Shown: piece after piece, positions 15,314 to 31,254 of the stretch
Layout of the letters: the number at the start of each line of letters is the position of its first letter
How positions within the stretch are numbered: the stretch's first letter is position 1
Translations under genes and position numbers: made by a program
NCBI GenBank assembly: GCA_021740225.1
Contig: JAIPAF010000003.1
Coordinates: 1-37,330 of the forward strand
Reading direction: 5' to 3'
Origin: Bacteroidales bacterium
GTDB lineage: Bacteria; Bacteroidota; Bacteroidia; Bacteroidales; UBA12077
DNA: 37,330 bases
Notes under the pieces: model-generated
What the model saw: the letters and a program-made list of their open reading frames with translations, nothing else
What the model was told of the DNA's origin: nothing
Databases searched by the model: none

Positions 15314-16213
15314 GTGGAAATTCACATTGATCAGTTAAACAAGGTTTATAACAAGGATTTTTATGCCCTGAAAGACGTTTCGTTGTCTATTGGCAACGGG
15401 ATGTTTGGCCTTCTTGGTCCCAACGGGGCCGGCAAATCCACTTTGATGCGAATCCTGGTAACTCTCATGAAGCCCACTAGCGGCAAGATTACTGTTGACG
15501 GAAAAAATATCCACAAACACCGAAAAGAAATTCGTAAGATGATCGGATACCTTCCCCAGGATTTTCGATTTTTCTCAAAACTGAAAACATGGGAATTTTT
15601 GGATTATTCTGCTGCCTTATCGGGGATGACCAACAATAAGCAGCGCAAAGAAGCGGTTGATCAAATGCTTGAAGATGTTGGGCTTTTTGATGCCCGCGAC
15701 CGACAGGCAGGAAAGCTTTCGGGCGGAATGAAACGCAGGCTTGGAATTGCCCAGGCCCTCATCAACGATCCCAAACTGATCGTGGTCGATGAGCCTACAA
15801 CCGGTCTTGATCCGGACGAACGGATTCGCTTCCGTAATCTGTTGTCGAAAATATCCGGAGAAGAACGAGTAATCATTCTTTCCACCCATATCGTTGCAGA
15901 CATTTCCAGTACCTGCAACCAAATGGCACTACTCAGTCAGGGAGAAGTTGCCTTTCAAGGAACTCCCGAAGATATTACGGAAAAGGCCCGTGGCAGTGTA
16001 TGGAAGGTAATCCTTACCACCAGGGAGCTGGAAAAGGTAAAAGAGGAATACCCGGTTATCTCTACGGTCATGATGGAAAAAGGATGGGAAGTGATTCTGG
16101 TGGCCGATGACCTCCAAGGCTATCCAGGTGAAAAGATAGAGCCCGACCTGGAACATGCCTACGTATACTTTATGGATAAAGAATTAAACGAATTCATGGT
16201 TAGTGAATATTAA
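15314..16213 (+). CDS. ABC transporter ATP-binding protein (DrrA/CcmA-like exporter type)
   Basis: GTG start; Walker A GPNGAGKST, Q-loop GYLPQ, signature LSGGM, Walker B VVDEPT, H-loop LSTH. Confidence 0.93.
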   Translation: MEIHIDQLNKVYNKDFYALKDVSLSIGNGMFGLLGPNGAGKSTLMRILVTLMKPTSGKITVDGKNIHKHRKEIRKMIGYLPQDFRFFSKLKTWEFLDYSAALSGMTNNKQRKEAVDQMLEDVGLFDARDRQAGKLSGGMKRRLGIAQALINDPKLIVVDEPTTGLDPDERIRFRNLLSKISGEERVIILSTHIVADISSTCNQMALLSQGEVAFQGTPEDITEKARGSVWKVILTTRELEKVKEEYPVISTVMMEKGWEVILVADDLQGYPGEKIEPDLEHAYVYFMDKELNEFMVSEY

Positions 16214-16224
16214 TCAATAAAACA

Positions 16225-19200
16225 ATGTTTTCTTTCAAAAATTTTAATACGGTTGCCCGGTTTGAGTCCAAAACACTCATGCGGAGCTGGTTCTTGCGTA
16301 TTTTTGCAATCATTGCCTTTATCGTACTGATCTTTTTTAATATCCTCGTTTCGCAGCAGGATTTTTCCCCCAGAGTGCTCAGAGGATTACCCACCAATAT
16401 TCCCTACGCATCCCTGTTGATATTTAATGTTATTCAGGCTGTTATAGCTGTTTTCCTTGCAACTGATTTTATGAAAAGGGATAAAAAACAGGATACAACA
16501 GAAGTAATTTACGTACGCTCACTTTCCAATGCAGAATATATTTGGGGCAAAGTATTTGGAAATTTAAAGGTTTTTCTCGGCCTGAATGTGCTTATCCTGC
16601 TTATTCCACTCATATTCACTCTGGTTACCCAGGATATGACACTAAACCTGTTGGGTTACGGCTTATATTTTCTTTTAATTTCACTGCCCACATTATTATT
16701 CATTTTTGGATTATCATTCTTTCTGATGGCATGGCTGAGGAACCAGGCTATCGTATTGCTTGTGCTGTTGGGCTACATTGCCTTAACCCTGTTTTATCTG
16801 GACGATAAGCTCTACTACATCTTTGATTACATGTCATTCAACATTCCCATGATATGGTCGGAATTTATTGGTCTGGCGGATTCTTCCCGTATTATAATGC
16901 ACAGGGCATTATACGTTTCACTGGGAATTGCAATGGTTTTCCTTACGGTTCTTTTAATGAAACGCCTTCGTCAGTCCAATTCGGCTTACTGGATTTCATG
17001 GACCGGCGGGATTCTATTCCTGGGAATTGCTGTATTCCTTGCTGCAAATCATATCGAAAAGGAGACTTCTATGCGCCAATTCCGGAACAAGTTGATCGCC
17101 CTGAATGATCAGTATCTTCAGAATAATTTGCCGAGGGTTCGGGAATATGATCTTGATCTTGTCCACAAAGGAGATAAGGTTCAGATGGTGGCTGAAATGG
17201 AAGTGCTCAATCCCACCGGCGAAAAGCTCGACTCTCTTATTTTCAGCTTAAACCCAGGATTTAAACTGAACAGATGTACCATTGATGGTCAAGAAAACGG
17301 ATACAGAAAAGACCATCATTTGGTTATTATCGATAAAACTTTGAAGCCCGGGGATTCAACTAATATCACTCTACATTATGCCGGCCGGCCAGATGAAAGG
17401 GTATGCTATCTGGATGTTCCAAACCGGCTTCTGTTCAGAGGCGAACATATGATCTTGTTCAGAATGCCTAAAAAATTCAGCTTCACTACTCCCGGTTATC
17501 TGATGTTTACACCGGAACTTTTATGGTATCCTGTAGCGGGAACTGGGTTCTCAACCAAAAATGTAGCGGGTTTCCGAAAGAATTTTGCAGAATATCAATT
17601 GACAGTAGAACCTGCCAAAAATATGACGGTACTCAGTCAGGGGAAAGCCGAAAGGGAAAACGAAAAATGGGTCTTTGAACCCGGAAAACCTATGACATGC
17701 ATGTCGGTTATTGCCGGAAAATACCAGCGGGATTCCCTTACGGTAGATAACATAACCTACAACATCTATCATAAAGCCGGTCATGACATATACAATCCCT
17801 TCTTTAACGATATCCGGGATACCATCCCATCGATCATTAAAACTGTAATGGGGAATTATGAGTCGGATCTGCATCTGGAATATCCCTTTGAAAATTTTTC
17901 CATTATTGAAGTACCGGCTCAATTTCATGCCTATAAGAAGAATTTCACCCTTGCCAATGAAGCTACTTTACCCCAAATGGTATTGATGAAGGAACGTGCA
18001 TTCTCTTTAGACGGTGCTGATTTTCCCCGGTCTTTAAGAAGAAGGCTAACACGGAGTGATAGGGATCGTTCGGCTGAGGATATAAAAGCCGAATTGTTCA
18101 GGCAATTCATTCAGTCCAACTTTATCGAAGGTGAGGATTTTCGCAGGGGGTGGTTCAGAGCCGAGGACATCAGTGGCAACACAAAAATATTCCCCAATTT
18201 TATTTCCTATACCAATGATTTTGGAGTTAAGGAACTTCCCGTGATGAATCCGGTCCTTGAGCGATACATAGAAAGTCGCAGCACAGAAGAGGACAGGAGC
18301 AGATTCTTAGGTAACGACGGAGTGGGAGAAGAAGAGAGAGCAAATCTTCTGTTGAAGAATAATTCATTCGCCGAGTTGATGAGCGATACAGCCCATTTTG
18401 TCCGTCTCAGTGATGTAATCGATATCAAAGGGAGTTACTTTATTGATCTGATGAAGCATTTCTCAGGAAATTTCGACTTCGATCCGGTGCTTGACAGCTT
18501 TATTGTAGCTTCGCGCTATCAAAACAACACCGGTGAGATATTCCTGGATTACATGAAAAACAGATATAATGTAAACACAGAAAAGTATATGAACGACTGG
18601 CTATATTCCAAACAGTTGCCTGCATTTGAATTCACCGATATGGATGCTTACTCTTATTATGAAAAGGAGCGGCCCAGGTATCAGGCAGAAATTACCATCA
18701 CAAATACAGGCAAAGGTTTGGGTATCGTAAATTTGAACATGCGTATAGGACGACGGAGAAACAGCAGTTTGTCGGAAGAAAAGACGGTCATCCTGGATCC
18801 GGGGCAAAGCAAAAGAATCGGATTGTCTGTGGGTGAAGAACCCTCCATGTTAATTGTCAATACGCTTGTCTCTTCCAATTTGCCTTCCACCCTGAATTTT
18901 CCTTTGCAGGATATTAAAGAAGACAAGGATGCCAATGGCGGTGAATTTATCCGGGAGGTGGAACCGCCTTCCTCCGGGGATGAAGCCATTATAGTAGACA
19001 ATGAGGATCCTTCGTTCCGTGTCTTAGTCCCTGAAAAAGCTATAAAGCTGAGGGACCTTATTCAAAACAACCAAAGCCGGGAAGAATATACAGGGGTAAA
19101 TCCCTGGCGTCCACCGGAAGAATGGCAAAAAGCCATCCACAGCAAGTTTTACGGAGAGGTCAAATTATCGGCCAATTATGTCAGAGCCGGTAATGGAGAA

Positions 19201-19509
19201 CAAAAAGCTCTTTGGATGGTGCCCATAAAGGATGGGGGATACTACGAAGTACAGGCCTATGTCTCCGATGCAGGACTACAGCCACAATGGGGCCGCGGCG
19301 GAGAGAATAACGAAGAAAAACTTTATCATTATAAGATATTCCATGACAGCGGTGAAGAGGTTATTCCGGTTAATGCCAGAAACTATGAGGGCGACTGGGT
19401 CTCGCTGGGAGAATATTATTTTTCCCCGGATTCAGCAAAAATTCAAATATCCAATCAATCCAAAGCCAGAACGGTGGTCGCTGACGCCGTTAAACTAATC
19501 CAAAAATAA
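16225..19509 (+). CDS. ABC-2-type permease fused to an M1-aminopeptidase-like ectodomain (no HEXXH) and a C-terminal golvesin/xanthan-lyase-CBM-like domain
   Basis: About 275 aa polytopic N-terminus (ARFESKTLMRS, EYIWGK); YDLDL..LNPG..GDSTNITLHYAG..WYP pattern of M1-like N-domains; C-terminal IVDNED...WVSLGEYYF...VVADAVK. Confidence 0.65.
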   Translation: MFSFKNFNTVARFESKTLMRSWFLRIFAIIAFIVLIFFNILVSQQDFSPRVLRGLPTNIPYASLLIFNVIQAVIAVFLATDFMKRDKKQDTTEVIYVRSLSNAEYIWGKVFGNLKVFLGLNVLILLIPLIFTLVTQDMTLNLLGYGLYFLLISLPTLLFIFGLSFFLMAWLRNQAIVLLVLLGYIALTLFYLDDKLYYIFDYMSFNIPMIWSEFIGLADSSRIIMHRALYVSLGIAMVFLTVLLMKRLRQSNSAYWISWTGGILFLGIAVFLAANHIEKETSMRQFRNKLIALNDQYLQNNLPRVREYDLDLVHKGDKVQMVAEMEVLNPTGEKLDSLIFSLNPGFKLNRCTIDGQENGYRKDHHLVIIDKTLKPGDSTNITLHYAGRPDERVCYLDVPNRLLFRGEHMILFRMPKKFSFTTPGYLMFTPELLWYPVAGTGFSTKNVAGFRKNFAEYQLTVEPAKNMTVLSQGKAERENEKWVFEPGKPMTCMSVIAGKYQRDSLTVDNITYNIYHKAGHDIYNPFFNDIRDTIPSIIKTVMGNYESDLHLEYPFENFSIIEVPAQFHAYKKNFTLANEATLPQMVLMKERAFSLDGADFPRSLRRRLTRSDRDRSAEDIKAELFRQFIQSNFIEGEDFRRGWFRAEDISGNTKIFPNFISYTNDFGVKELPVMNPVLERYIESRSTEEDRSRFLGNDGVGEEERANLLLKNNSFAELMSDTAHFVRLSDVIDIKGSYFIDLMKHFSGNFDFDPVLDSFIVASRYQNNTGEIFLDYMKNRYNVNTEKYMNDWLYSKQLPAFEFTDMDAYSYYEKERPRYQAEITITNTGKGLGIVNLNMRIGRRRNSSLSEEKTVILDPGQSKRIGLSVGEEPSMLIVNTLVSSNLPSTLNFPLQDIKEDKDANGGEFIREVEPPSSGDEAIIVDNEDPSFRVLVPEKAIKLRDLIQNNQSREEYTGVNPWRPPEEWQKAIHSKFYGEVKLSANYVRAGNGEQKALWMVPIKDGGYYEVQAYVSDAGLQPQWGRGGENNEEKLYHYKIFHDSGEEVIPVNARNYEGDWVSLGEYYFSPDSAKIQISNQSKARTVVADAVKLIQK

Positions 19510-19515
19510 ATCATT

Positions 19516-20997
19516 ATGATTCTAAAACGCTTTATTGCTATCTTTTTTTTATCTTTTTTGGTTGTATCAGCCGGCGCACAACAGTTGCTGACACTTGAAG
19601 AAGCGTTGGAAATTGCCAACGACAACAGCCCGGAAGTAAGAAAAAGCCGATTGAACAGGCAACGCAGCAAAAATTTTCTGGATGCGCAAAGGGCTTCGCT
19701 AAAAACCAATTTCAACCTTTCTCTTGAGCCTTTCAACTACTCAAGAGAAGAACGATTTTATGAAATGGAATCCAGGTGGCAAACCACCGAAATGTATTCC
19801 AGCATGGCCAATTTTAGCATTTCTCAGCCAATCACGCTTACAGACGGGGAACTATCCCTGAACAACCGGCTTGCCTGGCAACATTCCACCACGGAAGTAG
19901 GCACACAACTAAACGAAGATATTGCTTTCAGTAACAATTTGTTTCTGCAGTACGAACAGCCCCTGTTCTCCTATAATGAAACCAAACAGAATCTGGAAGA
20001 ACTGGAGCTGGATTACGAAAGGTCAGACATACAATACAGGCTTCAAAAGCTAAACACAGAGGTACAGGTAACCAGAAGCTATTATAATTTGTATGCCTCT
20101 CAAATGGCATTGGAAATATCCAGAGAAGAACTGAAAAATCAGAAGGAGAATTACCAGGTTGTGCAAAACAAAGTAGATGCCGATTTACTGGCCTTAGAGG
20201 AACTTTATCAGGCGGAAGTTAACCTGACCTCGGCACGTTCACAGGTTTATACCCGTGAAGTTCAGCTCCAAAATGCGAAGGATGATTTCAAACAACTCAT
20301 TGGAATGGATCTGGACAGAAATTTCAGGGTTGAACTCGATATAGAGATCGATTCGGTAGATATAAACATGGATAAAGCCATACAGAATGCCCTTGGATCT
20401 CGCCTGGAGATCCGCAACCGGGAGATCGAACTTCAAAACGCCAAGTTCAACCTCATTGAAACCAGTGACCGGAATAAATTTAAAGGAAATGTATCGGTTT
20501 CTGTTGGTGTTCAAGGAGTAGACAAACAATTTGCTGATATGTACGATGTACCTACAACCAGCCCTTCCATTTCGCTAAGCTTTAACGTTCCCATCTGGGA
20601 CTGGGGGGCTCGCGAAGCCCGTATAAAAGCTGCTAAATTGAATGTACAATCCAATCGGATTGATTTGAATGAGGAGTCCAAATCGATTAACCTGGGCATT
20701 CGCCAAACTATACGGAACCTAAGGAATTATAAGAATCAGATAGAGATAGCCAGAAAGAATCAAAAGAATGCCCAACTGACTTATGATATCAACCTGGAAC
20801 GGTACAACAGGGGTGATCTTACCGGAATGGATATTCAGCAATACCAGAACCAACTAAGTCAGGCGAAAATGGATCTGACCACAGCCCTCATCGATTATAA
20901 AATGGAACTGCTTAATCTTAAAATGCAGACGCTGTACGATTTTATAGAAAATGAACCGTTGCTCCCCAAAAATGTAGTTAACAGTATTTTAGAATAA
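19516..20997 (+). CDS. TolC family outer membrane efflux protein
   Basis: Signal peptide; LTLEEALEIA..NSP, YEQPLF, V.RSYYNL, ERYNRG, VPIWDWG; two-repeat OEP architecture. Confidence 0.9.
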   Translation: MILKRFIAIFFLSFLVVSAGAQQLLTLEEALEIANDNSPEVRKSRLNRQRSKNFLDAQRASLKTNFNLSLEPFNYSREERFYEMESRWQTTEMYSSMANFSISQPITLTDGELSLNNRLAWQHSTTEVGTQLNEDIAFSNNLFLQYEQPLFSYNETKQNLEELELDYERSDIQYRLQKLNTEVQVTRSYYNLYASQMALEISREELKNQKENYQVVQNKVDADLLALEELYQAEVNLTSARSQVYTREVQLQNAKDDFKQLIGMDLDRNFRVELDIEIDSVDINMDKAIQNALGSRLEIRNREIELQNAKFNLIETSDRNKFKGNVSVSVGVQGVDKQFADMYDVPTTSPSISLSFNVPIWDWGAREARIKAAKLNVQSNRIDLNEESKSINLGIRQTIRNLRNYKNQIEIARKNQKNAQLTYDINLERYNRGDLTGMDIQQYQNQLSQAKMDLTTALIDYKMELLNLKMQTLYDFIENEPLLPKNVVNSILE

Positions 20998-21002
20998 TAA
21001 AC

Positions 21003-22088
21003 ATGAATTGTATGCATACAAAAACTTTTTTCTTTTTACGAATCCTTTCCGCTATCACCCTCTTTGCGATGATGATTTCCGGGTGTAACCAGGGAGAGAT
21101 CAGCAGAGACAGTGATGTTGCCGTACCTGTGTCGGTTACGGAAGCCAATTATGAAGCCATTAGTGAATTCCTGCAAACCACCGGCACAGTGAATGCTGTT
21201 CATTCAGCAGAGCTGGTGACCAAAGTGGAAGGAGATTATTTTCTTCAAACCAATCCGAGAACCAACCAAAAGTTTGCCCTGGGTGATCAGATAAAAGAAG
21301 GGGAAACACTAATAAAGCTAAAAAACAGGGAATATGAGCTGGGTATTCAGATTGAATCAGTAAAACTGGAGCAGAAAATAGCCAAACAGGAATATGAAAA
21401 GCAACAAGCTCTATACGAAAAGGGGGGGGTGACCCTTCGGGAACTGACCAATGCCGAAAAAACTTATATCAATGCCCAGAATGCTTTAGAAGAAGCCAAA
21501 CTGAACCTGAACAAGCTTTCCGTAACCGCTCCCATCACCGGATTTATCACTCAACTACCCTACTATACCCCGGGAACCCATATGAATGCCAATACCAACG
21601 TTGCCAAAATAATGGATTACCGTGAATTGATGCTGGAAGTGAGTTTTCCGGAGAAAACCCTGCCGATAATTCAGACCGGCCAACAAGTAAGAATAAATCA
21701 TTATTCCCTGGATACAGCGCAAGCCCTTGAGGGTAGAGTAACGGAGATTTCTCCTGCTGTGGATCCGGACACCCGTATGTTTGATGCCAAAATCCGGGTA
21801 CAGAATCAACAAAAACGGCTTCGGCCGGGAATGTTCGTAAAAGCCAATGTTATGGTAGAACATAAAGACAGTGTGATCACTCTGCCGCGGGAAATCGTGC
21901 TCGAGAGAAACGACCGGCAGATCGTATATGTGGTCCAGCAAGACCGGGCCCATGAAAGAAATGTAGTAACGGGAATTGAATCCGGCGACAGGGTTGAGAT
22001 CATTGACGGGATTGAAGAGGATGAACGGGTGGTCACCGACGGCTACGAAACACTGAGGGACCGGAGTAGGGTGAAGGTGCTGCAATGA
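21003..22088 (+). CDS. RND efflux periplasmic adaptor (MFP), lipoprotein
   Basis: Lipobox-like ISGC; VTAPITGFI, ISPAVDPDTRMF, LRPGMFV, V.TGIE....VEI..G, VVTDG; start 21003 or 21012. Confidence 0.92.
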   Translation: MNCMHTKTFFFLRILSAITLFAMMISGCNQGEISRDSDVAVPVSVTEANYEAISEFLQTTGTVNAVHSAELVTKVEGDYFLQTNPRTNQKFALGDQIKEGETLIKLKNREYELGIQIESVKLEQKIAKQEYEKQQALYEKGGVTLRELTNAEKTYINAQNALEEAKLNLNKLSVTAPITGFITQLPYYTPGTHMNANTNVAKIMDYRELMLEVSFPEKTLPIIQTGQQVRINHYSLDTAQALEGRVTEISPAVDPDTRMFDAKIRVQNQQKRLRPGMFVKANVMVEHKDSVITLPREIVLERNDRQIVYVVQQDRAHERNVVTGIESGDRVEIIDGIEEDERVVTDGYETLRDRSRVKVLQ

Positions 22089-22089
22089 A

Positions 22090-22705: not shown

Positions 22706-25700
22706 ATGATAAAACTAACCCGCTTCTCAGTAAAATACCCGGTAACCATTACAATGCTTGTTTTTGCAGTCCTGCTTCTCGGTTACATCTCATTTAACCG
22801 CCTGGGGACGGACTTGTTTCCCGATTTAAGAAATCCGCGGTTGTTTGTAGAACTTCATTCCGGAGAAAAACCCCCTTCGGAAATTGAATCGAGGTTTGCA
22901 GAAAACATAGAAAGTCTGGGTATACGCCAAAACGGAGTGACCGATGTTTCCACGGAGATTGGTACAGGAAGGATGTTAACCACCATTCATTATGAATGGG
23001 GACAGGACATGAATGCTGCCTTTCTTGATCTACAAAAAGCACTTTCTTCTGTGGCCACCAATCAGGAAGTGGACGAGCTTAACATCTACCAGAACGATCC
23101 CAACGCCGCACCCATCATGAGGGTAATCGTCAGTAATGCGGACATCAATGATATGAATCTGCTGCGACAGACGGCGGAGAATTATATTTATAACCAGTTG
23201 GTGCGGCTGAATGGAGTGGCCGATGTTGAACTCTCCGGTGAAGAAGAGGCGCAACTGCTCATTCAAACGGAAAGCTATCTTATGGACGCTCACGGTCTAT
23301 CCATGGACGAGATATCTTCCCGTATTCAGGCTTTCAACCGTGATATCAGCGGGGGTACGCTTGAGGAAAAAGGAACGGAATATCTCATCACGGGAGAAAG
23401 TTTATTGGGAAAGGTGGAGGATTTTCGCAACCTGATTGTGGGATACCAGCAGAAAACTTCCAGAAACAATGAGCGCACTCAAATTCCTGTCACCCTTGAA
23501 CAAGTGGCTGATGTGCAAATGAAAAACAAAGACCCTGATAACATGGTTTACTTCAACGGGGAGCGGTGTATCGGACTTGCCATTTACAAGGAGCAGGGCA
23601 AAAACACCGTGGATATAGTAAAATTGGTAGACCAGGCCCTGACTGATTTAAACAAGGCTTTGCCGGGCTACCGGTTCACCGTTGTAGAAAACCAGGGAGA
23701 ATACATTGACCAGGCCATTGGTGAAGTAGAAAACACTGCCCTTATCGGTATTTTATTGGCGGTTTTCGTGCTTTTCCTATTTTTACGGCGATTGCGTGTA
23801 ACGCTCATTGTTTCGGTGGCCATCCCCATATCAATCATTGCCACTTTTAATCTAATGTATTTTAACGGTTTAAGCCTAAATGTAATGACATTGGGTGGTC
23901 TTGCCCTCGGGGCCGGTATGCTGGTGGATAATGCCATTGTAGTAATCGAAAATATATTCCGCCACATCGAAGAGGGTTCCTCTGTGAAAGATGCTGCCAT
24001 ACAAGGCACGGCAGAGATGGGAGGAGCCATTACAGCCTCTACACTCACCACCATCGTAGTATTTTTACCTATTGTATACCTGCATGGTGAATCGGGCGAA
24101 TTATTCAAGGAAGAAGCCTGGACCGTGGCATTTTCTCTCTTGTCCTCTCTTTTTGTTGCTCTGCTTGTTATTCCGGTAATGACGGATAAGTGGATCAAAG
24201 CGGAGCGGAAAAAAACATTGAAATCAGTAAATATAGGGTGGTATGGCCGGTGGCTGAGCGGGATTCTCAACAAGCGATGGCTCGTTATTGGACTCAGTGC
24301 AGGTTTGATCGGCTTTGCCGCTTTATTGCTGCCGCGCGTGGGAAGTGAATTCATGCCCAAATCCCAGGGTGGCGCATTTGCTGTTTCAATAGAACTTCCC
24401 GGCGGTACCCGTTTGGAGAAAACAGCCAGGGTGGGCCGGCAGGTGCAGGCTATGATGGACGATGCCTTTGGTGATAAAGTGTCCTATTATTACCTGCATG
24501 TGGGACCCGGAACTGAAGAAGATGCTGCTACTACAGAACTAATGCAGGGAAGCAACTTCGCCAGCATTCAGGTACAACCCAAAGAGGGGGCGGTCATCCG
24601 CCCCGAAGAGGTGATTGCATTGACCAACTCCTCACTAGGTGATGTATCGGGCCTGAAAATAGAATACAAACAAAAACAAACAAGCCTGGATGAGATTCTG
24701 GGAACCGATGCATCTCCCCTTGTCGTCCAAACTTCCGGAGAAGAGCTGGAACAGATCGAATCGATCACCGAGAATATTCGTAAAGAACTTACAGGCATTG
24801 AAGGATTGTATGACGTAAAAACCAATTTTGATAAGGGCGCACCTGAAATTGAAGTCCGCGTAGACCGGTACCAGGCGGGAATGTACAATATCAGCCTGGA
24901 TCAGATAGTCAATCAGATTGAAAGGCAATTGACCGGAATGGAAATAGGGGAGTTCGACAGGGAAGGAGAGATGACCGATATTACCCTGAAATTACCTGAT
25001 TTGAGCAGAAAAGACCTTGAAGAGCTGGAGTTGAGATCGGGGAATCAGGTTATACGGCTGGACCAGATTGCCACCTTCCATACCGGTCAGTCACCGGGAA
25101 AGATATACCGGGAAAACCAAAAACGGGTGGGTAAAGTAATGGCCCGTATTGAAGAGGATATAACCCTGGATCGTGTGGTCAAAAAAGTAAATGCCAAACT
25201 GGCCGGGATAGAATTCCCAGCCCGTTATCAAACAGAAATCACAGGAGAAGAACAAAAGAGAGCAGAATCTTTCGCAAGTCTAAAATTTGCACTCATACTC
25301 TCCATCATTCTGGTATATATGGTGATGGCCTCGCAATTCGAAAGTCTGCTACATCCCATGACTATTCTGCTTTCACTGCCTCTTGCTTTCACCGGTCCCG
25401 TATTTTTATTTCTTGGAATAGGTGAATCATTTAACATCATAGCATATATTGGCATTATCATGCTGGCAGGAATAGCGGTGAACAACAGCATCATCCTTGT
25501 TGATGCCATCCGCCGGTATCAGCGACAGGGAATGGTAAAGCGGGATGCCATATTACAAGCCGGGCAAAACCGTATAAGACCCATTGTGATGACCAGCATT
25601 ACCACCATTCTGGCGCTATTACCGTTAACCATTGACTTCGGTCAGAGTGCCGAGCTCCGTTCCCCAATGGCCTGGGCTGTTATAGGAGGTTTGATCACAT

Positions 25701-25789
25701 CAACCATCCTTACGCTAGTGACCATCCCTTGCGTGTATTACATTTTTCAGCGAAAAGAAGTATTGTCAAATCCGGAAGATCAGGAATAA
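22706..25789 (+). CDS. RND efflux transporter permease subunit (AcrB/MdtB family)
   Basis: 1027 aa; AIPISII.TF, LN.MTLGGLALG.GMLVDNAIVVIENI, ASTLTT..VFLP, VYMVMASQFES, RIRPIVMT, PMA.AVIGGL. Confidence 0.95.
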   Translation: MIKLTRFSVKYPVTITMLVFAVLLLGYISFNRLGTDLFPDLRNPRLFVELHSGEKPPSEIESRFAENIESLGIRQNGVTDVSTEIGTGRMLTTIHYEWGQDMNAAFLDLQKALSSVATNQEVDELNIYQNDPNAAPIMRVIVSNADINDMNLLRQTAENYIYNQLVRLNGVADVELSGEEEAQLLIQTESYLMDAHGLSMDEISSRIQAFNRDISGGTLEEKGTEYLITGESLLGKVEDFRNLIVGYQQKTSRNNERTQIPVTLEQVADVQMKNKDPDNMVYFNGERCIGLAIYKEQGKNTVDIVKLVDQALTDLNKALPGYRFTVVENQGEYIDQAIGEVENTALIGILLAVFVLFLFLRRLRVTLIVSVAIPISIIATFNLMYFNGLSLNVMTLGGLALGAGMLVDNAIVVIENIFRHIEEGSSVKDAAIQGTAEMGGAITASTLTTIVVFLPIVYLHGESGELFKEEAWTVAFSLLSSLFVALLVIPVMTDKWIKAERKKTLKSVNIGWYGRWLSGILNKRWLVIGLSAGLIGFAALLLPRVGSEFMPKSQGGAFAVSIELPGGTRLEKTARVGRQVQAMMDDAFGDKVSYYYLHVGPGTEEDAATTELMQGSNFASIQVQPKEGAVIRPEEVIALTNSSLGDVSGLKIEYKQKQTSLDEILGTDASPLVVQTSGEELEQIESITENIRKELTGIEGLYDVKTNFDKGAPEIEVRVDRYQAGMYNISLDQIVNQIERQLTGMEIGEFDREGEMTDITLKLPDLSRKDLEELELRSGNQVIRLDQIATFHTGQSPGKIYRENQKRVGKVMARIEEDITLDRVVKKVNAKLAGIEFPARYQTEITGEEQKRAESFASLKFALILSIILVYMVMASQFESLLHPMTILLSLPLAFTGPVFLFLGIGESFNIIAYIGIIMLAGIAVNNSIILVDAIRRYQRQGMVKRDAILQAGQNRIRPIVMTSITTILALLPLTIDFGQSAELRSPMAWAVIGGLITSTILTLVTIPCVYYIFQRKEVLSNPEDQE

Positions 25790-25798
25790 GCCTTCACT

Positions 25799-28700
25799 AT
25801 GAACAAATTTGTAAAGCGAAAAATACTGGTCTCCATGCTGTTCCTGGCTTTAGTCATGCTGGGAATCTTTTCCTATCGATCGATGCCGGTTGAACTATTT
25901 CCAAGCGCCGAAACACCGGTACTCTATGTCCAGGTAAACTACCGTTCCCAAATAAACCCTCATTTTGTGGAAAAGGATGCCATCATTCCCCTGGAGGGGA
26001 TCATCAGTGAAGAAGAAGGTGTTGATGAGCTGGAATCGAACATTTCACAAAGGCGGGCAACCATTGTGGTTACCTTCAGGCAGGATGTGGACATCAACTA
26101 TGCTTATCTGAAGCTGGAGCAAAAGATACAGGAGTTTCAGCGGGAACACCGGGAAAACTATATGGTAAACCTGGTCAAGGTCAATACCGACATGTCCTCC
26201 AACCAGTTTATGACCATCCAGGCGCGGGGTGAAGGCGATATCGACCGGATTCGGAATGTCGTTGATCAGGAGATCCTTTCCGATCTGGTGGCAGTGAATG
26301 GCGTAGGTGATGCTACGGTTCAGGGAGGACAGGAACGATCCGTTGAAGTAATTTTTGATGAGGAAACCTGTGAGGCCCTTCACATCACACCCGGAAGGAT
26401 CAATAACCGGCTCAATATGTATTCCAATCAGCGGCTATATGGCGGGATGGTCTATGATGTGGGCAAACGCTGGATTGTAAACGTATCCGGTGAATTAACC
26501 AGCATCAATGAACTAGGGGATATCATACTGGATGACAACGGTAACGTTCGTCTGCAGGATGTGGCTACAATCAACATGGGAAAAAAAGAGCGGGAAACCA
26601 TCAGCCGTGTAAACGGCATGGAAGCAGTGACCATAACGATCTATAACGACGCCAATGTAAATGATATCACACTCTACCATAAGCTACAGGATGCCATAGA
26701 AAATATTAACTCGGAGATGGCTTCCAATCGAGTTGAACTGGTTATCCAGAGCTGTGAGGCTGAAACCATGGAAGAGAACATGAATCAGATACTCAGCCTT
26801 GCTTTAATCGGCGGATTACTGGCCATCTTCGTCCTATGGATATTCCTGCGGAACATACGTTTGGTAGTTGTTGTGGCGCTTGCGATACCCATTTCCATCT
26901 TCGCCTCGATTAATTTTCTCTATGCTGCCGGCATTACCATCAACACGCTCACTTTAATGGGTGTGGCCCTGGCCATCGGGATGCTCCTGGATAACAGTGT
27001 GGTGGTGCTGGAAAATATCTATCGGTTAAGGACAGAAGGTGCCACTCCAGTAGGTGCTGCATCCGGAGGAACAAGACAGGTGATCCGTGCCGTGACGGCC
27101 GCTACTCTTACAACAATAGCCGTTTTTCTGCCCTTTGCATTTTCTACAGAGTTCTTCATTAAACTCTTGGGGAACAATGTGGGGTTTTCCATTATTTTTA
27201 CCTTGCTGGTGTCGCTTCTTGTGGCACTAATATTTATACCGATGGTGGTATACCAATTCCTCAAAGCCCGCAGGAAAGCCCTGACCCTCCATTCGATAAA
27301 TTTTCGAAAACCAATAATTCGCGGATACCTGATATTGTTAAGATTTTGTCTGCGCCATCCTGCCCAGGTGCTCTTTACCATGGTCTTGCTATTTTTTGCC
27401 GCAGTAGTGATTAGTCTGTCAGTTAGTGTAAACACCCTACAGGAAGCGGAAACAGACAGTTTTCGGGTTTCAATCACCATGCCGGGGGGTACAACCCTGA
27501 AAACCTCCGATGAAACGGTAAGCAATATGGAGGACGATCTCGGAAATATAGAGGAGATTGATGAAGTAGTCAGCAACATTGAAGCAGAAGAAGCTTCCAT
27601 GATCATCCAATTGAAGGAAGAGTTTAAAAAGATCAACGACCGGAGTGTAGCTCAAATAAAAGATGATGTACTGAATAGGCTGGATGTATATAACAACGTT
27701 CATGTTAGCATTACGGACATGACCTCGTCTGATGACAGCAACTTCAATATTGGAGGCGGTGCTTCAGATTTTTTGAGTTTCATGGGTGTCGGACAACAAA
27801 CGGAAGAGGTGCTCATCAAGGGTTCGAATTATGAAGATATGGTTTTGGTTGGTGAAAATGTAGAGTATATACTTTCTGAAGAATCGGATAATGTAACCTC
27901 GGCGCGCCTGCAAATATCGCGTGAACAGCCGGAGGTGAGGGTACTTTTCGACCAACGCCTAATGGAGGCTTTAAATATAGATTACACCAGTGTGCAACAG
28001 GAGATGAACGCTTTCTCCAGGCAACTCGAGAGTGGTATGACCTTTAAACAGGGTGATGAGGAATACGATATTACCATACGCAGCAAACAGGCTGAAGAAA
28101 ATCAAAAAGAACAAAAAGGCATGGAAGATCTCCGGCATTTGCTCATAGATGCTGACAATGATAGTGTTGTTTCCTCCCATCATCTAATGGATTTCAGTTC
28201 CCTGCGCTATAGTGAAGGAATTGCTTCCATTCACCGGCAAAACAGGGAAAAAAGCATCTCGGTAAATTACCGCTTTTCATCTGAAATCAATGAAGACAAT
28301 GATTTGCTGGAGAGTGCCCGTGCCGAAGTAGACGAACTGATTTCCGGTTTATACGTTCCACCGGGAGTAGCGGTAGAAGTACAGCATGAGCAGGATCAAT
28401 ACGGTGAATTCAAAATGCTTATTCTTGCTGCCTTTATACTGATCTATATGATCCTTGCTTCCGTATTTGAAAGCTTTTCCACCCCATTCGTCCTGTTGTT
28501 TTCCATACCCTTGGCGGCCATCGGATCGCTCATGGGGCTCATTTTAACCGGAAATTCCCTGCTCAATGCCAATACCCTTATTGGGTTTCTCATCCTCCTG
28601 GGAGTGGTGGTCAATAATGGGATCATACTGATTGATTTTGTGCAAAATATGAGGTTCAATGGAGCCAGGATTGCACGAGCCGTTATCAGTGCAGGATTGC

Positions 28701-30514
28701 TTCGTGTGCGCCCGATTCTCATTACCGTGATCACCACAGTTATAGGAATGCTTCCACTGGCCATGGGACAGGGCGAATATGTAGGTAGCATTGGAGCTCC
28801 TTTTGCCATCACAGTGATTGGCGGGTTGCTGTTTTCCACCTTGTTCACACTGGTAATCATTCCCACCGCCTACTACGCAATGGAAACCACCCTTCGTTGG
28901 TTTGCTTCGCTTCCGCTTCACATCAAGATCATCAACTGGATGCTTTTGCCGGCAGGTATAGTGCTGGCCATCATAGAGGCGGATACCCTGCTGTGGCAAA
29001 TGGTTGGCGTGGTTGCCGTATTGACTGTTGTGCCTGCAACGACCTGGTTTTTCACCGAAAGCCTGCGTAAAGCATCAGCGGACGTAATCGACAGAAATAG
29101 TGACATCGTTATCCGTATCCGAAACCTGGTAAAAATCTATGACCGGCCTTCAAGACCCCTGCGTGAATGGCTGGGGAACAAGCATCTGAATGAACTCCTT
29201 GGTATGGGAGAAGAAAAACAAAATTCACGTCAGGAGCTGATATGGCAGATGCCGCTTCTGGGCTTCCTCGGATGGTTTGCCTGGTTTTATCAGTCGGGGG
29301 GATTTTGGACATACATCTTATCTGTGGCGTTATGGTTTTACTTAATTTTCCTGATTAAACGTCTCATTACCCTGTTTCCCTCATCCCGTGTTAAAAGATG
29401 GTTTTCCCGGCTGCATTGGATTGTTCTTCGGTTTTTCCCTCTTGTTATACTCGGAGTCTATCAAATCAAATTCACGAATACGGGAGCCACGGTTGTCTGG
29501 GGATTACTCACTTATTTCCTTCTGGGCATTTATCTTACTTCACAACACCTCAAGGAAAACCGGGTGAACACCGCCCGCATCAAAGGGCGTTTTGCCGGTC
29601 TGAAAAAACTATGGATAAACCTTGTGCGCGCCGTGCCGATGATCGGTCGTGAGCGAAAGCCTTTCAAAGCGCTGAAGAGTGTCTCGATGGATATCGGTCA
29701 TGGAATGTTTGGCCTGCTTGGCCCCAACGGAGCAGGCAAGACAACCCTGATGCGGATTATATGTGGTGTGCTGGAGCAGAGCTATGGGAAGATCACCATC
29801 AACGAGATCGATACCCTTGAAAAACGGGAAGAATTGCAGGGGTTGATCGGATATTTGCCCCAGGAATTCGGCATGTATGAAAATATGACCGCCAGGGATT
29901 ACCTGGATTACCAGGCCATACTCAAAGGTTTGCACAATCCGCAAACCCGTAAGGAAAGGGTGGACAATGTATTGCAGTCGGTTCACATGATTTCCAATGC
30001 CAATAAAAAGATCGGTTCGTTCTCAGGGGGTATGAAACAACGGATAGGAATTGCCCAGGTATTGCTGAACCTACCCCGTATACTGGTGGTGGATGAGCCA
30101 ACAGCCGGACTGGATCCCCGTGAACGCATCCGCTTCCGAAATCTTTTGGTAGAGCTGAGCAGTGAACGGGTAGTGATCTTCTCTACCCATATTATCGAAG
30201 ATATTGCCAGTTCGTGCAACCAACTGGCAGTGCTTGACAAAGGAAACCTGAAATATTACGGAAAACCGGCTGAGATGGCATCACTGGCAAAAAACAGGGT
30301 ATGGCAGTTTGATGTTCCGGCAGAACAATTTGAAGGGATAGCCCAGGATTTGAAAGTGGTTCATCATATAAGAAAAGGAGAAAATATCCGTGTGAGGGTA
30401 GTGAATCCCGACAAGCCGCATGAAAATGCCCAAAATGTTACTGCTGTGCTTGAAGACGCCTATATATGGCTCCTGAACTTCAGCGGAAAAAACAATACAA
30501 TTCAATCATCTTAA
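25799..30514 (+). CDS. RND permease fused to a C-terminal ABC ATP-binding domain
   Basis: aa 1 to about 1030 full RND (GMLLDNSVVVLENI, YMILASVFES, RVRPILIT); extra TM helices; then GPNGAGKTT, GYLPQ, FSGGM, VVDEPT, FSTH in the same uninterrupted 1571-aa ORF. Confidence 0.9.
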   Translation: MNKFVKRKILVSMLFLALVMLGIFSYRSMPVELFPSAETPVLYVQVNYRSQINPHFVEKDAIIPLEGIISEEEGVDELESNISQRRATIVVTFRQDVDINYAYLKLEQKIQEFQREHRENYMVNLVKVNTDMSSNQFMTIQARGEGDIDRIRNVVDQEILSDLVAVNGVGDATVQGGQERSVEVIFDEETCEALHITPGRINNRLNMYSNQRLYGGMVYDVGKRWIVNVSGELTSINELGDIILDDNGNVRLQDVATINMGKKERETISRVNGMEAVTITIYNDANVNDITLYHKLQDAIENINSEMASNRVELVIQSCEAETMEENMNQILSLALIGGLLAIFVLWIFLRNIRLVVVVALAIPISIFASINFLYAAGITINTLTLMGVALAIGMLLDNSVVVLENIYRLRTEGATPVGAASGGTRQVIRAVTAATLTTIAVFLPFAFSTEFFIKLLGNNVGFSIIFTLLVSLLVALIFIPMVVYQFLKARRKALTLHSINFRKPIIRGYLILLRFCLRHPAQVLFTMVLLFFAAVVISLSVSVNTLQEAETDSFRVSITMPGGTTLKTSDETVSNMEDDLGNIEEIDEVVSNIEAEEASMIIQLKEEFKKINDRSVAQIKDDVLNRLDVYNNVHVSITDMTSSDDSNFNIGGGASDFLSFMGVGQQTEEVLIKGSNYEDMVLVGENVEYILSEESDNVTSARLQISREQPEVRVLFDQRLMEALNIDYTSVQQEMNAFSRQLESGMTFKQGDEEYDITIRSKQAEENQKEQKGMEDLRHLLIDADNDSVVSSHHLMDFSSLRYSEGIASIHRQNREKSISVNYRFSSEINEDNDLLESARAEVDELISGLYVPPGVAVEVQHEQDQYGEFKMLILAAFILIYMILASVFESFSTPFVLLFSIPLAAIGSLMGLILTGNSLLNANTLIGFLILLGVVVNNGIILIDFVQNMRFNGARIARAVISAGLLRVRPILITVITTVIGMLPLAMGQGEYVGSIGAPFAITVIGGLLFSTLFTLVIIPTAYYAMETTLRWFASLPLHIKIINWMLLPAGIVLAIIEADTLLWQMVGVVAVLTVVPATTWFFTESLRKASADVIDRNSDIVIRIRNLVKIYDRPSRPLREWLGNKHLNELLGMGEEKQNSRQELIWQMPLLGFLGWFAWFYQSGGFWTYILSVALWFYLIFLIKRLITLFPSSRVKRWFSRLHWIVLRFFPLVILGVYQIKFTNTGATVVWGLLTYFLLGIYLTSQHLKENRVNTARIKGRFAGLKKLWINLVRAVPMIGRERKPFKALKSVSMDIGHGMFGLLGPNGAGKTTLMRIICGVLEQSYGKITINEIDTLEKREELQGLIGYLPQEFGMYENMTARDYLDYQAILKGLHNPQTRKERVDNVLQSVHMISNANKKIGSFSGGMKQRIGIAQVLLNLPRILVVDEPTAGLDPRERIRFRNLLVELSSERVVIFSTHIIEDIASSCNQLAVLDKGNLKYYGKPAEMASLAKNRVWQFDVPAEQFEGIAQDLKVVHHIRKGENIRVRVVNPDKPHENAQNVTAVLEDAYIWLLNFSGKNNTIQSS

Positions 30515-30540
30515 AACAAGGAGGAAATTTTCAAACCAGT

Positions 30541-31254
30541 ATGGTAAAACTGATAAAACATTGGCTTATCAACTCCGTGCAAATCACCCGGCACAACCTG
30601 AAAATCATATTCGGGGATAAATTTCCCTTCTTCCTGTTGGGGGCATTTGCCATATTCATCTTCATCGTGTTAATCAATTTGTTCGGGGGTGATCCGTTCA
30701 CCAGTGAATCGGTTTATTCACTGCTGGTCTTTGAAGGGATCATCATCGTATTTTTCCCCACCATCTATGCGGTACAGACGGATATTGACAAACGGACCAT
30801 AGAGATTCTTTTCGGCATTCCCGATTACCGTTATAAAGTATGGCTAGTACGCCTTCTGATCGCCTTCATCGTATGCTGGGTTCTTCTGGCGGTACTGGCC
30901 CTGATGTGCTATTTCGCACTGGTCAGTTTTCCCGTGGGCACCATGATCTATTATGTCATCTTTCCGGTTTTTGCCCTGGGAAGCCTGGGATTCCTCATTG
31001 CAACCCTGGTAAAAAACGGAAACAGCGCTGCGGTTGTAGCTATAATCATTGGTTTGGGCTTATGGGTATTATCCGAGGCATTGGTAGATAGTCAGTGGAA
31101 CGTCTTTCTCAACCCGTTTGATGAGGCCGATATGGCCGGACAAATATGGGAAGCTACCATAAGGAAGAACCGCCTGTTCCTTTTCGTTGCCGGAGTGGTA
31201 TTTCTTGTGGGTGGTTTACTAGGTCTCCAGAACCGGGAAGGGTTTATGCAGTAA
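30541..31254 (+). CDS. ABC-2-type transporter permease
   Basis: About 6 hydrophobic helices; D.D.RTIEILFGIPDYRYKVW..RL loop typical of ABC-2 TMDs. Start ATG 30541 preferred over 30466, which overlaps the upstream gene. Confidence 0.7.
   Translation: MVKLIKHWLINSVQITRHNLKIIFGDKFPFFLLGAFAIFIFIVLINLFGGDPFTSESVYSLLVFEGIIIVFFPTIYAVQTDIDKRTIEILFGIPDYRYKVWLVRLLIAFIVCWVLLAVLALMCYFALVSFPVGTMIYYVIFPVFALGSLGFLIATLVKNGNSAAVVAIIIGLGLWVLSEALVDSQWNVFLNPFDEADMAGQIWEATIRKNRLFLFVAGVVFLVGGLLGLQNREGFMQ

What the first reader, a model, noticed from the sequence alone, without database searches (positions are those of the whole stretch)
15314..31254. Hybrid RND-ABC export machine encoded as one operon
Seen: seven co-oriented transport genes with very short spacers (except at the four-helix insert): ABC NBD, ABC permease with large ectodomain, TolC, MFP, RND-1, RND-2::NBD fusion, second ABC permease. 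Known: RND pumps (ion-motive, AcrAB-TolC, heteromeric MdtBC) and ABC exporters (ATP-driven) are normally separate machines. Inference: the parts add up to one complex, with two NBDs (one free, one RND-tethered) and two different TMDs forming a heterodimeric ABC transporter anchored to a heteromeric RND-MFP-TolC channel. This could be a relay in which the ABC moves substrate across the inner membrane and hands it to the RND/TolC. I know of no functional characterisation of this architecture.
Basis: partly seen in the sequence, partly recalled or inferred. Interest (0 to 1): 0.85.

Follow-up and report, generated by a model that had tools for sequence, protein, structure and literature searches.

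The report
RND efflux pump fused to ABC ATPase
A conserved seven-gene cluster encodes an outer-membrane-spanning RND efflux pump, one subunit of which is fused to the ATP-burning engine of an ABC transporter; I found no published study of this combination of two normally separate pump types.

Summary
Window 15314-31254 (+) carries seven co-oriented transporter genes and one unrelated four-helix-bundle gene. They are NBD-A, PermA, a TolC-like channel, an adaptor (MFP), RND-1, a 1571-aa RND-2::ABC-ATPase fusion, and PermB.

The fusion is real. All 120 listed database relatives carry both domains. The same gene order was seen in 26 of 36 genome loci. Nine more are cut by the DNA available, and one lacks only TolC. 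The loci come from Bacteroidota, Calditrichota and Latescibacterota.

New details:
- The fusion adds six membrane helices, four of them inserted inside the ATPase between strand β1 and Walker A.
- PermA's periplasmic domain has an M1-aminopeptidase fold without catalytic residues.
- PermB and PermA match the first and second membrane domains of a widespread single-chain "ABC permease-M1 peptidase".

A complex model places PermB on the tethered ATPase (0.68; best control 0.00). This is a textbook-like pair.

Coupling of ABC to RND, the RND heterotrimer and the substrate remain inferred. Seven literature searches found no description of the architecture. Verdict: a new variant of tripartite efflux systems, interest 0.75.

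The parts
15314..16213 (+). NBD-A: free ABC ATPase, 299 aa, GldA/DrrA-like
   Evidence: ABC_tran E 2.2e-35. Closest paralog of NBD-B in the own genome: 43% identity, next best 34%. All catalytic motifs are kept in 18 of 18 orthologs.
16225..17055 (+). PermA membrane part: 6-TM ABC-2-type domain plus a seventh helix that leads out to the periplasm
   Evidence: Model helices and hydropathy. hhalign to TMD2 of the single-chain permease-M1 family, 99.8%.
17122..18624 (+). PermA periplasmic M1-aminopeptidase-like domain, non-catalytic
   Evidence: Foldseek hits IRAP, ERAP1, PepN and F3, E down to 1.6e-16 over about 640 columns. Profile hits to M1 chains. 0 of 27 orthologs have HExxH or GxMEN.
19120..19500 (+). 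PermA C-terminal beta domain (Golvesin_C-like)
   Evidence: Pfam PF25275, E 5.8e-16. The profile matches the C-terminal domain of Paenibacillus xanthan lyase 6f2p, E 5.7e-9.
19516..20997 (+). TolC-like outer membrane factor, 493 aa
   Evidence: OEP E 8.9e-40. TIGR01844 E 3.9e-27, below its cut-off.
21003..22088 (+). Periplasmic adaptor (MFP), 361 aa
   Evidence: TIGR01730 RND_mfp, 204.5 bits, above its cut-off of 94.9.
22168..22539 (+). Four-helix-bundle gene (23S rRNA IVP family). A lineage-specific insert, not part of the conserved module.
   Evidence: TIGR02436 E 8.3e-21. No homolog at this place in any of the 36 related loci.
22706..25789 (+). RND-1: RND permease without an ATPase, 1027 aa
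   Evidence: ACR_tran E 5e-215, model positions 2-1020. 27% identical to RND-2.
25799..28894 (+). RND-2 portion of the fusion (aa 1-1032)
   Evidence: ACR_tran E 1.8e-165, model positions 3-1020. PDB relatives are ordinary RND chains.
28916..29077 (+). Two extra TM helices after RND TM12 (aa 1040-1093)
   Evidence: Model helices H6-26 and H30-59, pLDDT mostly 89-92, lower over the last residues. Hydropathy.
29111..29140 (+). Strand beta-1 of NBD-B with the invariant A-loop Tyr (aa 1105-1114), separated from the rest of the ATPase
   Evidence: Strand E71-80 in the model. K78 and Y80 are invariant in 35 sequences.
29213..29560 (+). Four-helix membrane insert inside NBD-B (aa 1139-1254)
   Evidence: Model helices H105-130, H134-158, H162-191 and H194-220. 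Two are strongly and two moderately hydrophobic. Conserved W, Q, P and F residues.
29654..30514 (+). NBD-B core plus C-terminal regulatory-type domain (aa 1286-1571) and stop
   Evidence: ABC_tran E 1e-28. Walker A, Q-loop, signature, Walker B, D-loop and H-loop are invariant in 35 sequences. Foldseek hits TM_1403, NosF and ABCA NBDs.
30541..31254 (+). PermB: 237-aa, 6-TM ABC-2-type permease, predicted partner of NBD-B
   Evidence: hhalign to TMD1 of the single-chain permease-M1 family, 72.6%, E 3.2e-5. Complex model 0.68 against a best control of 0.00. Follows the fusion in 35 of 36 loci; the remaining locus is cut.

Best explanation
The locus encodes one composite envelope-spanning exporter. 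An RND tripartite pump is joined to an ABC-2 (type V-like) ATP-driven transporter. The pump consists of a TolC-like channel, one adaptor and two divergent RND paralogs. The ABC part is a split derivative of the widespread two-gene system 'ATPase + single-chain TMD1-TMD2-M1 aminopeptidase'. PermB corresponds to TMD1. PermA corresponds to TMD2 plus a catalytically dead M1-like periplasmic domain. The ATPase is present as two distinct, each monophyletic, versions. NBD-A stays free. NBD-B is welded to the C-terminus of RND-2 through two extra TM helices and carries a four-helix membrane insert in its beta1-beta2 loop. The most likely assembly has NBD-A/PermA and NBD-B/PermB forming one heterodimeric ABC transporter, held against an RND trimer that contains RND-2 together with the ATPase-less RND-1. 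This mixed trimer would resolve the mismatch between a trimeric RND and a dimeric ATPase. ATP hydrolysis would move a substrate, possibly peptide-like or amphipathic, out of the cytoplasm or inner leaflet. The M1-like domain would receive it in the periplasm, and the RND/MFP/TolC part would expel it across the outer membrane. Shown: the gene content, the fusion, its conservation, intact ATPase motifs, the homologies and a predicted NBD-B/PermB interface. Inferred: the heterodimer, the RND heterotrimer, the relay and the substrate.
For: The fusion is conserved: 120 of 120 listed relatives carry PF00873 and PF00005, and about 35-40 clusters at 50% identity are 1550-1600 aa. The seven genes occur in the same order in 26 of 36 genome loci. 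9 loci are cut by a contig end or the flank limit, and 1 (L035, Latescibacterota) lacks only TolC. All seven genes also appear in 3 of 3 long fused metagenome loci. No conserved gene lies downstream in 29 related loci plus the window, so the module is self-contained. In L001 adjacent genes overlap by stop/start. Both ATPases keep every catalytic motif: NBD-B in 35 of 35 sequences, NBD-A in 18 of 18. The NBDs are the most conserved parts, at 55-75% identity against 24-37% for the extra helices. PermA matches TMD2 plus the M1 domain of single-chain proteins (hhalign 99.8%, E 9.4e-29, 734 columns). PermB matches their TMD1 (72.6%, E 3.2e-5, 224 columns). Those proteins have 13 hydrophobic segments and an intact HExxH site, and each follows a stand-alone NBD in 11 of 11 loci of that NBD clade. 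In the complex model of tethered NBD-B with PermB, the median score is 0.68 and the best of 3 controls is 0.00. That mark was reached by 58 of 80 solved complexes and 2 of 110 mismatched pairs. The runs agree in at least 76% of contacts, and the partner's pLDDT is at least 77. The interface joins the Q-loop and helical subdomain to the N-terminal helix and coupling helix of PermB.
Against: No tool result shows that NBD-A contacts NBD-B or that PermA contacts PermB. Both ATP sites are canonical, so there is none of the asymmetry typical of many heterodimers. The quick tree does not resolve NBD-A and NBD-B as sisters: both sit in a polytomy with stand-alone NBDs, and the careful search was not finished. 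The PermB-TMD1 match is modest at 72.6%. PermA-TM against PermB gives only 48.8% and no BLAST signal. The complex pass concerns a textbook-like NBD-permease pair. Similar complexes are solved (NosFY and ABCA appear among the Foldseek hits), so the pass may reflect likeness only. The model gave no confident contacts between the six extra helices and PermB. The RND relay variant (the TM10 Lys and the second TM4 Asp are both Asn) also occurs in an ordinary TetR-TolC-MFP-RND operon, so the RNDs may run by themselves. There is no expression or co-transcription evidence. In three loci some genes are fragmented (L015, L023, L028).
Confidence: 0.5

Rival explanations
1. Two or three separate machines are merely co-encoded and co-localised. 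These would be a homodimeric (NBD-A)2(PermA)2 transporter, a homodimeric (NBD-B)2(PermB)2 transporter hanging on RND-2, and RND pumps that share one adaptor and one TolC. All would act on the same substrate class, but without mechanical or obligatory coupling.
For: The gene order gives two canonical 'ATPase then permease' pairs. Both ATPases are fully canonical. The related stand-alone system works with a single ATPase gene. The complex model needs only NBD-B and PermB. An RND of the same relay type works in an ordinary operon without ABC genes.
Against: All seven genes stay together in every locus where the DNA reaches, across at least three phyla. PermA and PermB map to the two different halves of a single-chain permease. 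A homotrimer of RND-2 would carry three ATPases, which cannot all dimerise; this last point is inference.
Confidence: 0.27
2. The tethered ATPase is an energiser or gate of the RND pump itself. ATP binding and hydrolysis, transmitted through the six extra helices, would drive or license the conformational cycle of RND-2. The pump would then be partly ATP-powered, with PermB as an accessory.
For: The ATPase is covalently attached by helices that follow RND TM12, and four helices are inserted in the ATPase. Both RNDs lack the TM10 Lys and the second TM4 Asp of AcrB-type pumps. A second class of RND::ATPase fusions has no extra TM helices.
Against: The same relay variant is found in an RND with no ABC partner. 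A normal coupling-helix interface with PermB is predicted, as in ordinary ABC transporters. The extra helices are the least conserved part, at 24-37% identity.
Confidence: 0.12
3. The fusion or the cluster is an artefact of assembly, of a frameshift, or of chance adjacency.
For: The window comes from a 57%-complete metagenome-assembled genome.
Against: Hundreds of independent full-length relatives exist, some from isolate genomes such as Prolixibacter bellariivorans, Draconibacterium mangrovi, Marivirga sericea and Parabacteroides massiliensis. Synteny is conserved. A gap-free contig spans the junction.
Confidence: 0.01

Closest known systems
MdtABC-TolC of E. coli, a heteromeric RND pump (recalled; an MdtB chain, 9lyq, is the best PDB match of the C-terminal half of RND-2)
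   Same: Two different RND paralogs are encoded side by side with a single adaptor and use a TolC-type channel.
   Different: Here the two paralogs are only 27% identical. One carries six extra helices and an ABC ATPase. Two ABC permeases and a second ATPase are always co-encoded. A heterotrimer is not shown.
MacAB-TolC, an ABC-driven tripartite efflux pump (review PMC8277102, passages seen)
   Same: An ATP-driven inner-membrane component has a large periplasmic domain and is encoded with an adaptor and a TolC-type channel.
   Different: [quoted passage not shown] Its 4-TM topology, with the periplasmic domain between TM1 and TM2, is recalled. PermA has 6+1 TM helices with a C-terminal M1-like domain. 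The ATPase here is fused to an RND protein, not to its own permease.
Stand-alone 'ABC ATPase + single-chain TMD1-TMD2-M1 aminopeptidase' pairs (alignment A6; 11 loci in Flavobacteriaceae, Rikenellaceae, Acidobacteriota and others)
   Same: The ATPase belongs to the same subfamily. PermA matches TMD2 plus the M1 domain, and PermB matches TMD1.
   Different: In those pairs there is one polypeptide, one ATPase gene, an intact HExxH/E/Tyr site and no RND, adaptor or TolC genes. Here the permease is split, the peptidase site is lost (0 of 27), the ATPase is present in two versions and one of them is fused to an RND.
YbhGFSR of E. coli, an ABC-2 exporter with two different permeases and an adaptor (recalled; only the search listings of PMC7190983 and PMC9951867 were seen)
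   Same: An ABC-2-type system with two unlike permeases, encoded with an HlyD-family adaptor.
   Different: It has no RND component, no periplasmic M1-like domain, and its two ATPase domains are fused to each other, not to an RND.
NosDFY, an ABC-2 complex with a periplasmic partner (PDB 7osf and 7o0y among the best Foldseek hits)
   Same: The NBD fold with a C-terminal regulatory domain, a 6-TM ABC-2 permease, and work done on the periplasmic side.
   Different: It has a different periplasmic protein and no RND or TolC parts. Its function in copper delivery is recalled and not tested here.

Membership tests
RND permease superfamily (AcrB/AcrD/AcrF, PF00873) | Full-length match to the family model (12 TM helices, two large periplasmic loops) | tested here: met
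   RND-1 matches model positions 2-1020 of 1021, E 5e-215. RND-2 matches 3-1020, E 1.8e-165.
RND permease superfamily, AcrB-type (HAE-1) proton relay | TM4 Asp-Asp, TM10 Lys, TM11 Arg and Thr (AcrB numbering recalled) | tested here: not met
   TM4 is D-N and TM10 is N-N, while the TM11 R and T are kept. This holds in both RNDs and is invariant in 15 fusions. The same variant occurs in an ordinary RND operon, so it is a subfamily trait.
RND permease superfamily | Trimeric assembly; here a heterotrimer of RND-1 and RND-2 | not testable with these tools
   Size limits of the folding tools. Only co-occurrence is shown.
ABC ATPase (PF00005) | Walker A, Q-loop, signature, Walker B with Glu, D-loop, H-loop | tested here: met
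   Invariant in 35 of 35 NBD-B sequences and kept in 18 of 18 NBD-A sequences.
ABC-2 / type V-like exporters | NBD of the NosF/ABCA/TM_1403 type and a 6-TM permease that docks through an N-terminal helix and one coupling helix | tested here: met
   Foldseek. Predicted interface (a prediction, textbook-like pair). The Pfam ABC2_membrane_3 match of PermB is only E 0.0046, below the cut-off.
M1 aminopeptidase (gluzincin) | Overall fold | tested here: met
   Foldseek hits to IRAP, ERAP1, PepN and F3, E down to 1.6e-16. Profile hits. hhalign 99.8% to true M1-bearing proteins.
M1 aminopeptidase (gluzincin) | HExxH-E zinc site and GxMEN exopeptidase motif | tested here: not met
   0 of 27 PermA orthologs have either motif. 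The A6 relatives do have HEMAH, E and YGKG. PermA is therefore not filed as a peptidase.
MacB-type ABC tripartite pump | [quoted passage not shown] | tested here: not met
   PermA has 6+1 helices and then a C-terminal periplasmic domain. The NBDs are either free or fused to an RND.
Outer membrane factor (TolC/OEP) and RND-type adaptor | Family model matches | tested here: met
   OEP E 8.9e-40. TIGR01730 scores above its cut-off.

The most novel reading that the evidence does not exclude
This is a dual-engine efflux machine. One heterodimeric ABC transporter (NBD-A/PermA plus NBD-B/PermB) is permanently built into a 2:1 RND-1:RND-2 heterotrimer. ATP hydrolysis and the ion gradient would then be used obligatorily in a single complex that carries a substrate from the cytoplasm to the outside in one pass, with a dead M1 peptidase domain as the periplasmic hand-over chamber. 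This would be the first transporter to unite a primary and a secondary active engine in one assembly.
Probability: 0.3. Interest if true: 0.92.

Novelty: new variant of a known kind. Interest (0 to 1): 0.75.

Why it matters
RND pumps (ion-driven) and ABC pumps (ATP-driven) are treated as alternative engines of tripartite efflux. The 2021 review that I searched by keyword treats ABC-, RND- and MFS-driven transporters as separate classes, and my four keywords found no fusion in the first 300,000 characters held.

A covalent RND::ATPase fusion is conserved with a fixed set of six partner genes across several phyla of the FCB group. It occurs in gut genera such as Parabacteroides and Bacteroides, and in culturable marine isolates. 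This says that the two engines can be wired together.

If they are functionally coupled, two open questions become testable. One is how substrates that start in the cytoplasm reach RND pumps. The other is how a trimeric and a dimeric machine can be matched.

The locus also gives a first context for the uncharacterised 'ABC permease-M1 peptidase' family. It shows an ATPase with a membrane domain inserted in its beta1-beta2 loop; no PDB chain in the Foldseek search covered more than the NBD part of the model.

Tried and rejected
- **Loss of ion coupling in the RNDs.** I considered reading the missing TM10 Lys as evidence for an ATP-driven RND. I rejected it because an RND with the same variant sits in a plain TetR-TolC-MFP-RND operon.
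- **Natural split forms of the fusion.** Among the shorter relatives, nearly all lie on short contigs or are named 'partial'. No clear split form was seen.
- **Promoter and terminator scans.** The sigma-70 scan is uninformative for this lineage. The Bacteroidetes-type TAnnTTTG motif occurs once upstream, at 15109. The window holds 30 matches against 33.5 expected by chance, so this is no evidence.
- **Conserved flanking genes.** None downstream. The few upstream ORFs differ between loci.
- **Protein atlas.** Only ABC ATPase clusters came up, nothing new.
- **Expression.** No RNA holder is listed, so there is no evidence either way. Contigs of two DNA runs cover the region. Run X3 covers it only in small pieces. 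A single 'joint' with a side of 21 letters was ignored.
- **Genomic context of the shorter class of RND::ATPase fusions (1389-1458 aa).** One search listed further members of similar length (about 1390-1460 aa), none with an organism name.
- **Sister relation of NBD-A and NBD-B.** The tree is a quick one, the careful search did not finish, and the relation is unresolved.
- **Sampled prevalence.** Among 301 Bacteroidota genomes (G000 included), the listed matches show the fusion only in G000 and G143. 18 matches were not listed. G159's long open frame is an ATPase followed by a separate 1212-aa gene.
- **Supplementary files.** None were asked for.

Full report
**What is in the sequence**

Between 15314 and 31254 the + strand holds eight ORFs in a row. 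Pfam and NCBIfam name seven of them as transport parts:
- a 299-aa ABC ATPase (NBD-A);
- a 1094-aa membrane protein whose only hit is a C-terminal Golvesin_C domain (PermA);
- a TolC/OEP protein;
- an RND-type adaptor, TIGR01730, above its cut-off;
- a 1027-aa RND permease (RND-1);
- a 1571-aa protein with a full ACR_tran match at 2-1028 and an ABC_tran match at 1292-1436 (RND-2::NBD-B);
- a small membrane protein with a weak ABC-2 match (PermB).

The eighth ORF (22168-22539) is a four-helix-bundle protein of the 23S-rRNA-IVP family.

Spacers are 5-26 nt, except around that gene. PermB most likely starts at the ATG at 30541, just after the fusion's stop, which fits the N-termini of its orthologs. 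The flanks are unrelated: a histidine kinase and glycerate kinase upstream, and minus-strand carbohydrate esterase genes downstream.

**The fusion is real and conserved**

I searched the 537 C-terminal residues among proteins of 864-2750 aa. 5047 proteins gave E <= 0.001 among 8000 candidates. All 120 listed hits, the query among them, carry both PF00873 and PF00005, and 115 are 1483-1597 aa. Sources name them 'efflux RND transporter permease subunit' or 'AcrB/ABC ATPase subunit'.

The 50%-identity representative library holds roughly 35-40 clusters of this length with the match at about 1035-1570.

Shorter hits are almost all contig fragments.

A phmmer search of PDB sequences listed only ordinary RND chains among its best 60 of 138 matches; none holds both parts.

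Named carriers include Bacteroidales, Prolixibacteraceae, Marinilabiliaceae, Marivirga, Parabacteroides massiliensis, Bacteroides sp., Portibacter marinus, Calditrichota, KSB1, Chlorobi, Latescibacterota, Krumholzibacteria and Aminicenantes.

The fusion is not common per species. Among 301 evenly drawn Bacteroidota genomes (G000 included), the listed matches show it only in G000 and G143. 18 matches were not listed.

**The seven genes travel together**

I annotated 36 loci with a script that compares their ORFs with the window's proteins. These are G143 and L003-L037.
- 26 loci show all seven genes in the window's order.
- 9 are cut by a contig end or by the 10-kb flank. They show every gene that the DNA reaches, in the same order.
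- 1 (L035, Latescibacterota) has the flank but no TolC gene in the cluster.
- In L015, L023 and L028 some genes are in pieces. These may be sequencing errors or decay.

Three metagenome loci with enough flank also have all seven.

The four-helix gene is found in none of the 36 loci, so it is a local insertion. No gene family recurs downstream of PermB in 29 related loci plus the window. In G143 neighbouring genes overlap at stop/start.

**Anatomy of the fusion**

After RND TM12 come two hydrophobic helices (aa 1040-1093). Next is a short strand, 'IRIRNLVKIY', whose Lys and Tyr are invariant. This is strand beta-1 of the ATPase with the A-loop tyrosine. Then come an amphipathic helix and four long helices (aa 1139-1254). 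Only after these does the rest of the ATPase begin, at '...KPFKAL...GPNGAGKTT'.

The AlphaFold model, built on 35 sequences, has a mean pLDDT of 84.1 and a pTM of 0.65, and it shows exactly these elements. Hydropathy supports membrane helices: two of the four inserted helices are strongly hydrophobic and two moderately. Six extra helices keep the ATPase in the cytoplasm.

Foldseek matches only the ATPase part (TMq <= 0.42), best to TM_1403, NosF, ABCA-family NBDs and LptB.

A second class of RND::ATPase fusions (1389-1458 aa) has no extra TM helices, but it has a soluble insert at the same beta1-beta2 place. I could not recover its genomic context.

**The ABC part is a split permease-peptidase system**

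The PermA model has a mean pLDDT of 83.1 and a pTM of 0.79. It shows six TM helices, a seventh long helix, and a periplasmic body of about 800 residues.

Foldseek places that body with M1 aminopeptidases (IRAP, ERAP1, PepN, tricorn F3), with E down to 1.6e-16 over about 640 columns. The sequence profile also reaches M1 chains, and it matches the C-terminal domain of a xanthan lyase. None of 27 orthologs has HExxH or GxMEN.

The stand-alone ATPases nearest to NBD-A and NBD-B in the tree form a clade of 11. Each is followed by a protein of about 1200 aa. These proteins have 13 hydrophobic segments and an intact HExxH/E/YGKG site.

Profile comparison aligns PermA to their second membrane domain plus the peptidase (99.8%, E 9.4e-29, 734 columns). 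It aligns PermB to their first membrane domain (72.6%, E 3.2e-5, 224 columns). PermA-TM against PermB is weaker (48.8%).

In the single-chain relatives the two membrane domains necessarily act in one transporter. The split PermA/PermB pair is therefore most simply read as a heterodimer.

**ATPases and interface**

NBD-A is the best paralog of NBD-B in the own genome (43% identity, next best 34%). Each forms its own clade: NBD-B with support 100, NBD-A with 87. Their mutual position is unresolved, and the tree is a quick one. All catalytic motifs are kept in both.

The one complex job folded the tethered part (537 aa) with PermB.
- The median score is 0.68 (runs 0.68, 0.71, 0.66), and the best of three controls is 0.00.
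- That mark was reached by 58 of 80 solved complexes and 2 of 110 mismatched pairs.
- The runs agree in at least 76% of contacts, and the partner's pLDDT is at least 77.

The contacts join the Q-loop and helical subdomain of NBD-B to the N-terminal helix and the 84-100 coupling helix of PermB. This is a textbook-type pair with solved relatives, so the pass shows likeness, not proof. No confident contacts were given for the extra helices.

**The RND part**

RND-1 and RND-2 are 27% identical.

Alignments to solved pumps show D-N in TM4 where MdtF has D-D. They show N-N in TM10 where MdtB has K-N. The TM11 Arg and Thr are kept (AcrB numbering is recalled). This holds for both RNDs and is invariant in 15 fusions.

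The same variant is found in an unlinked RND of G143 that sits in a TetR-TolC-MFP-RND operon. It is therefore a subfamily trait and no evidence for ATP drive.

An ATPase-less paralog always accompanies the fused one. This fits a mixed trimer that avoids three ATPases per trimer. That is my inference, with MdtB2C as a recalled precedent.

**Mechanism and rivals**

Best reading (0.5): one composite machine, a heterodimeric ABC-2 transporter tethered to an RND-1/RND-2 trimer. It would pass a substrate from the cytoplasmic side, through the M1-like domain, to the RND/adaptor/TolC exit.

Rivals:
- separate homodimeric ABC transporters and RND pumps that are only co-localised (0.27);
- the ATPase as an energiser or gate of RND-2 (0.12);
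- an artefact (0.01).

The substrate is unknown. The descent from a peptidase-bearing exporter hints at peptides, and the xanthan-lyase-like end domain hints at a glycan contact. Both are leads only.

**Literature**

Seven full-text searches found no paper on such a fusion or on the permease-M1 system (one search failed on syntax). For most listed papers I saw only titles and the starts of abstracts. For the 2021 Chem Rev review (PMC8277102) I saw passages for the terms 'fused', 'hybrid', 'chimer' and 'Bacteroides'. Only the first 300,000 characters of that review are held, and none of the passages mentions an RND-ABC fusion. The library lacks most subscription journals, so 'not in print' means 'not found in those searches'.

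**Verdict**

This is a new variant of tripartite efflux systems. It is present in public databases only under automatic names, and culturable carriers are available for testing.

Noticed in passing
proteins P0285, P0300, P0308, P0310, P0332, P0352, P0387 (no window coordinates): A second class of RND::ABC-ATPase fusions, 1389-1458 aa. For the five members scanned, Pfam shows a full ACR_tran match, about 100-125 residues between the two matches, and ABC_tran. Hydropathy finds no extra TM helices in four of the five. The three sequences read by eye show a soluble stretch after RND TM12 and a roughly 30-60-residue soluble insert between strand beta-1 and Walker A. Their taxa and gene neighbourhood could not be obtained.
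   Followed up: partly
L002 10246-14775 (-); L061, L066-L069, L071, L074, L077, L079, L080, L082: A widespread two-gene system: a stand-alone ABC ATPase followed by a protein of about 1200 aa. That protein has 13 hydrophobic segments (two ABC-2-type membrane domains plus one helix) and an apparently active periplasmic M1 aminopeptidase (HEMAH, E, YGKG). Pfam gave no hit for the G159 member, and I found no paper on the system.
   Followed up: partly
window 22168-22539 (+): A four-helix-bundle gene of the 23S-rRNA-intervening-sequence family sits between the adaptor and RND-1, with spacers of 79 and 166 nt. It is absent at that place in all 36 related loci. Contigs of runs X2 and X3 have loose ends at 22527 and 22706, so this spot varies between relatives.
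   Followed up: partly
window 26990-26995 and 28613-28618 (RND-2); 23921-23926 and 25478-25483 (RND-1): Both RND paralogs have Asp-Asn in TM4 and Asn-Asn in TM10, where AcrB-type pumps have Asp-Asp and Lys-Asn. The same variant occurs in an ordinary RND operon of G143 (L175), so a whole RND subfamily seems to work without the TM10 lysine.
   Followed up: yes
L015, L023, L028: In three related loci several module genes are split into pieces: PermA and TolC in L015, nearly all genes in L023, and PermA and RND-1 in the complete genome of Marivirga tractuosa strain ac6. I could not tell sequencing errors from decay.
   Followed up: no
L100, L105, L107, L115 (metagenome contigs): Loci with two adjacent RND genes, and in L100 and L105 two adaptor genes, but no ABC genes. 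Two-RND operons without ATPases therefore exist among distant relatives.
   Followed up: no
window 12674-13723 (+): A histidine kinase (HisKA + HATPase_c) lies 1.6 kb upstream of the module, separated from it by a glycerate kinase gene. No response regulator was seen in the window, and a link to the module was not examined.
   Followed up: no
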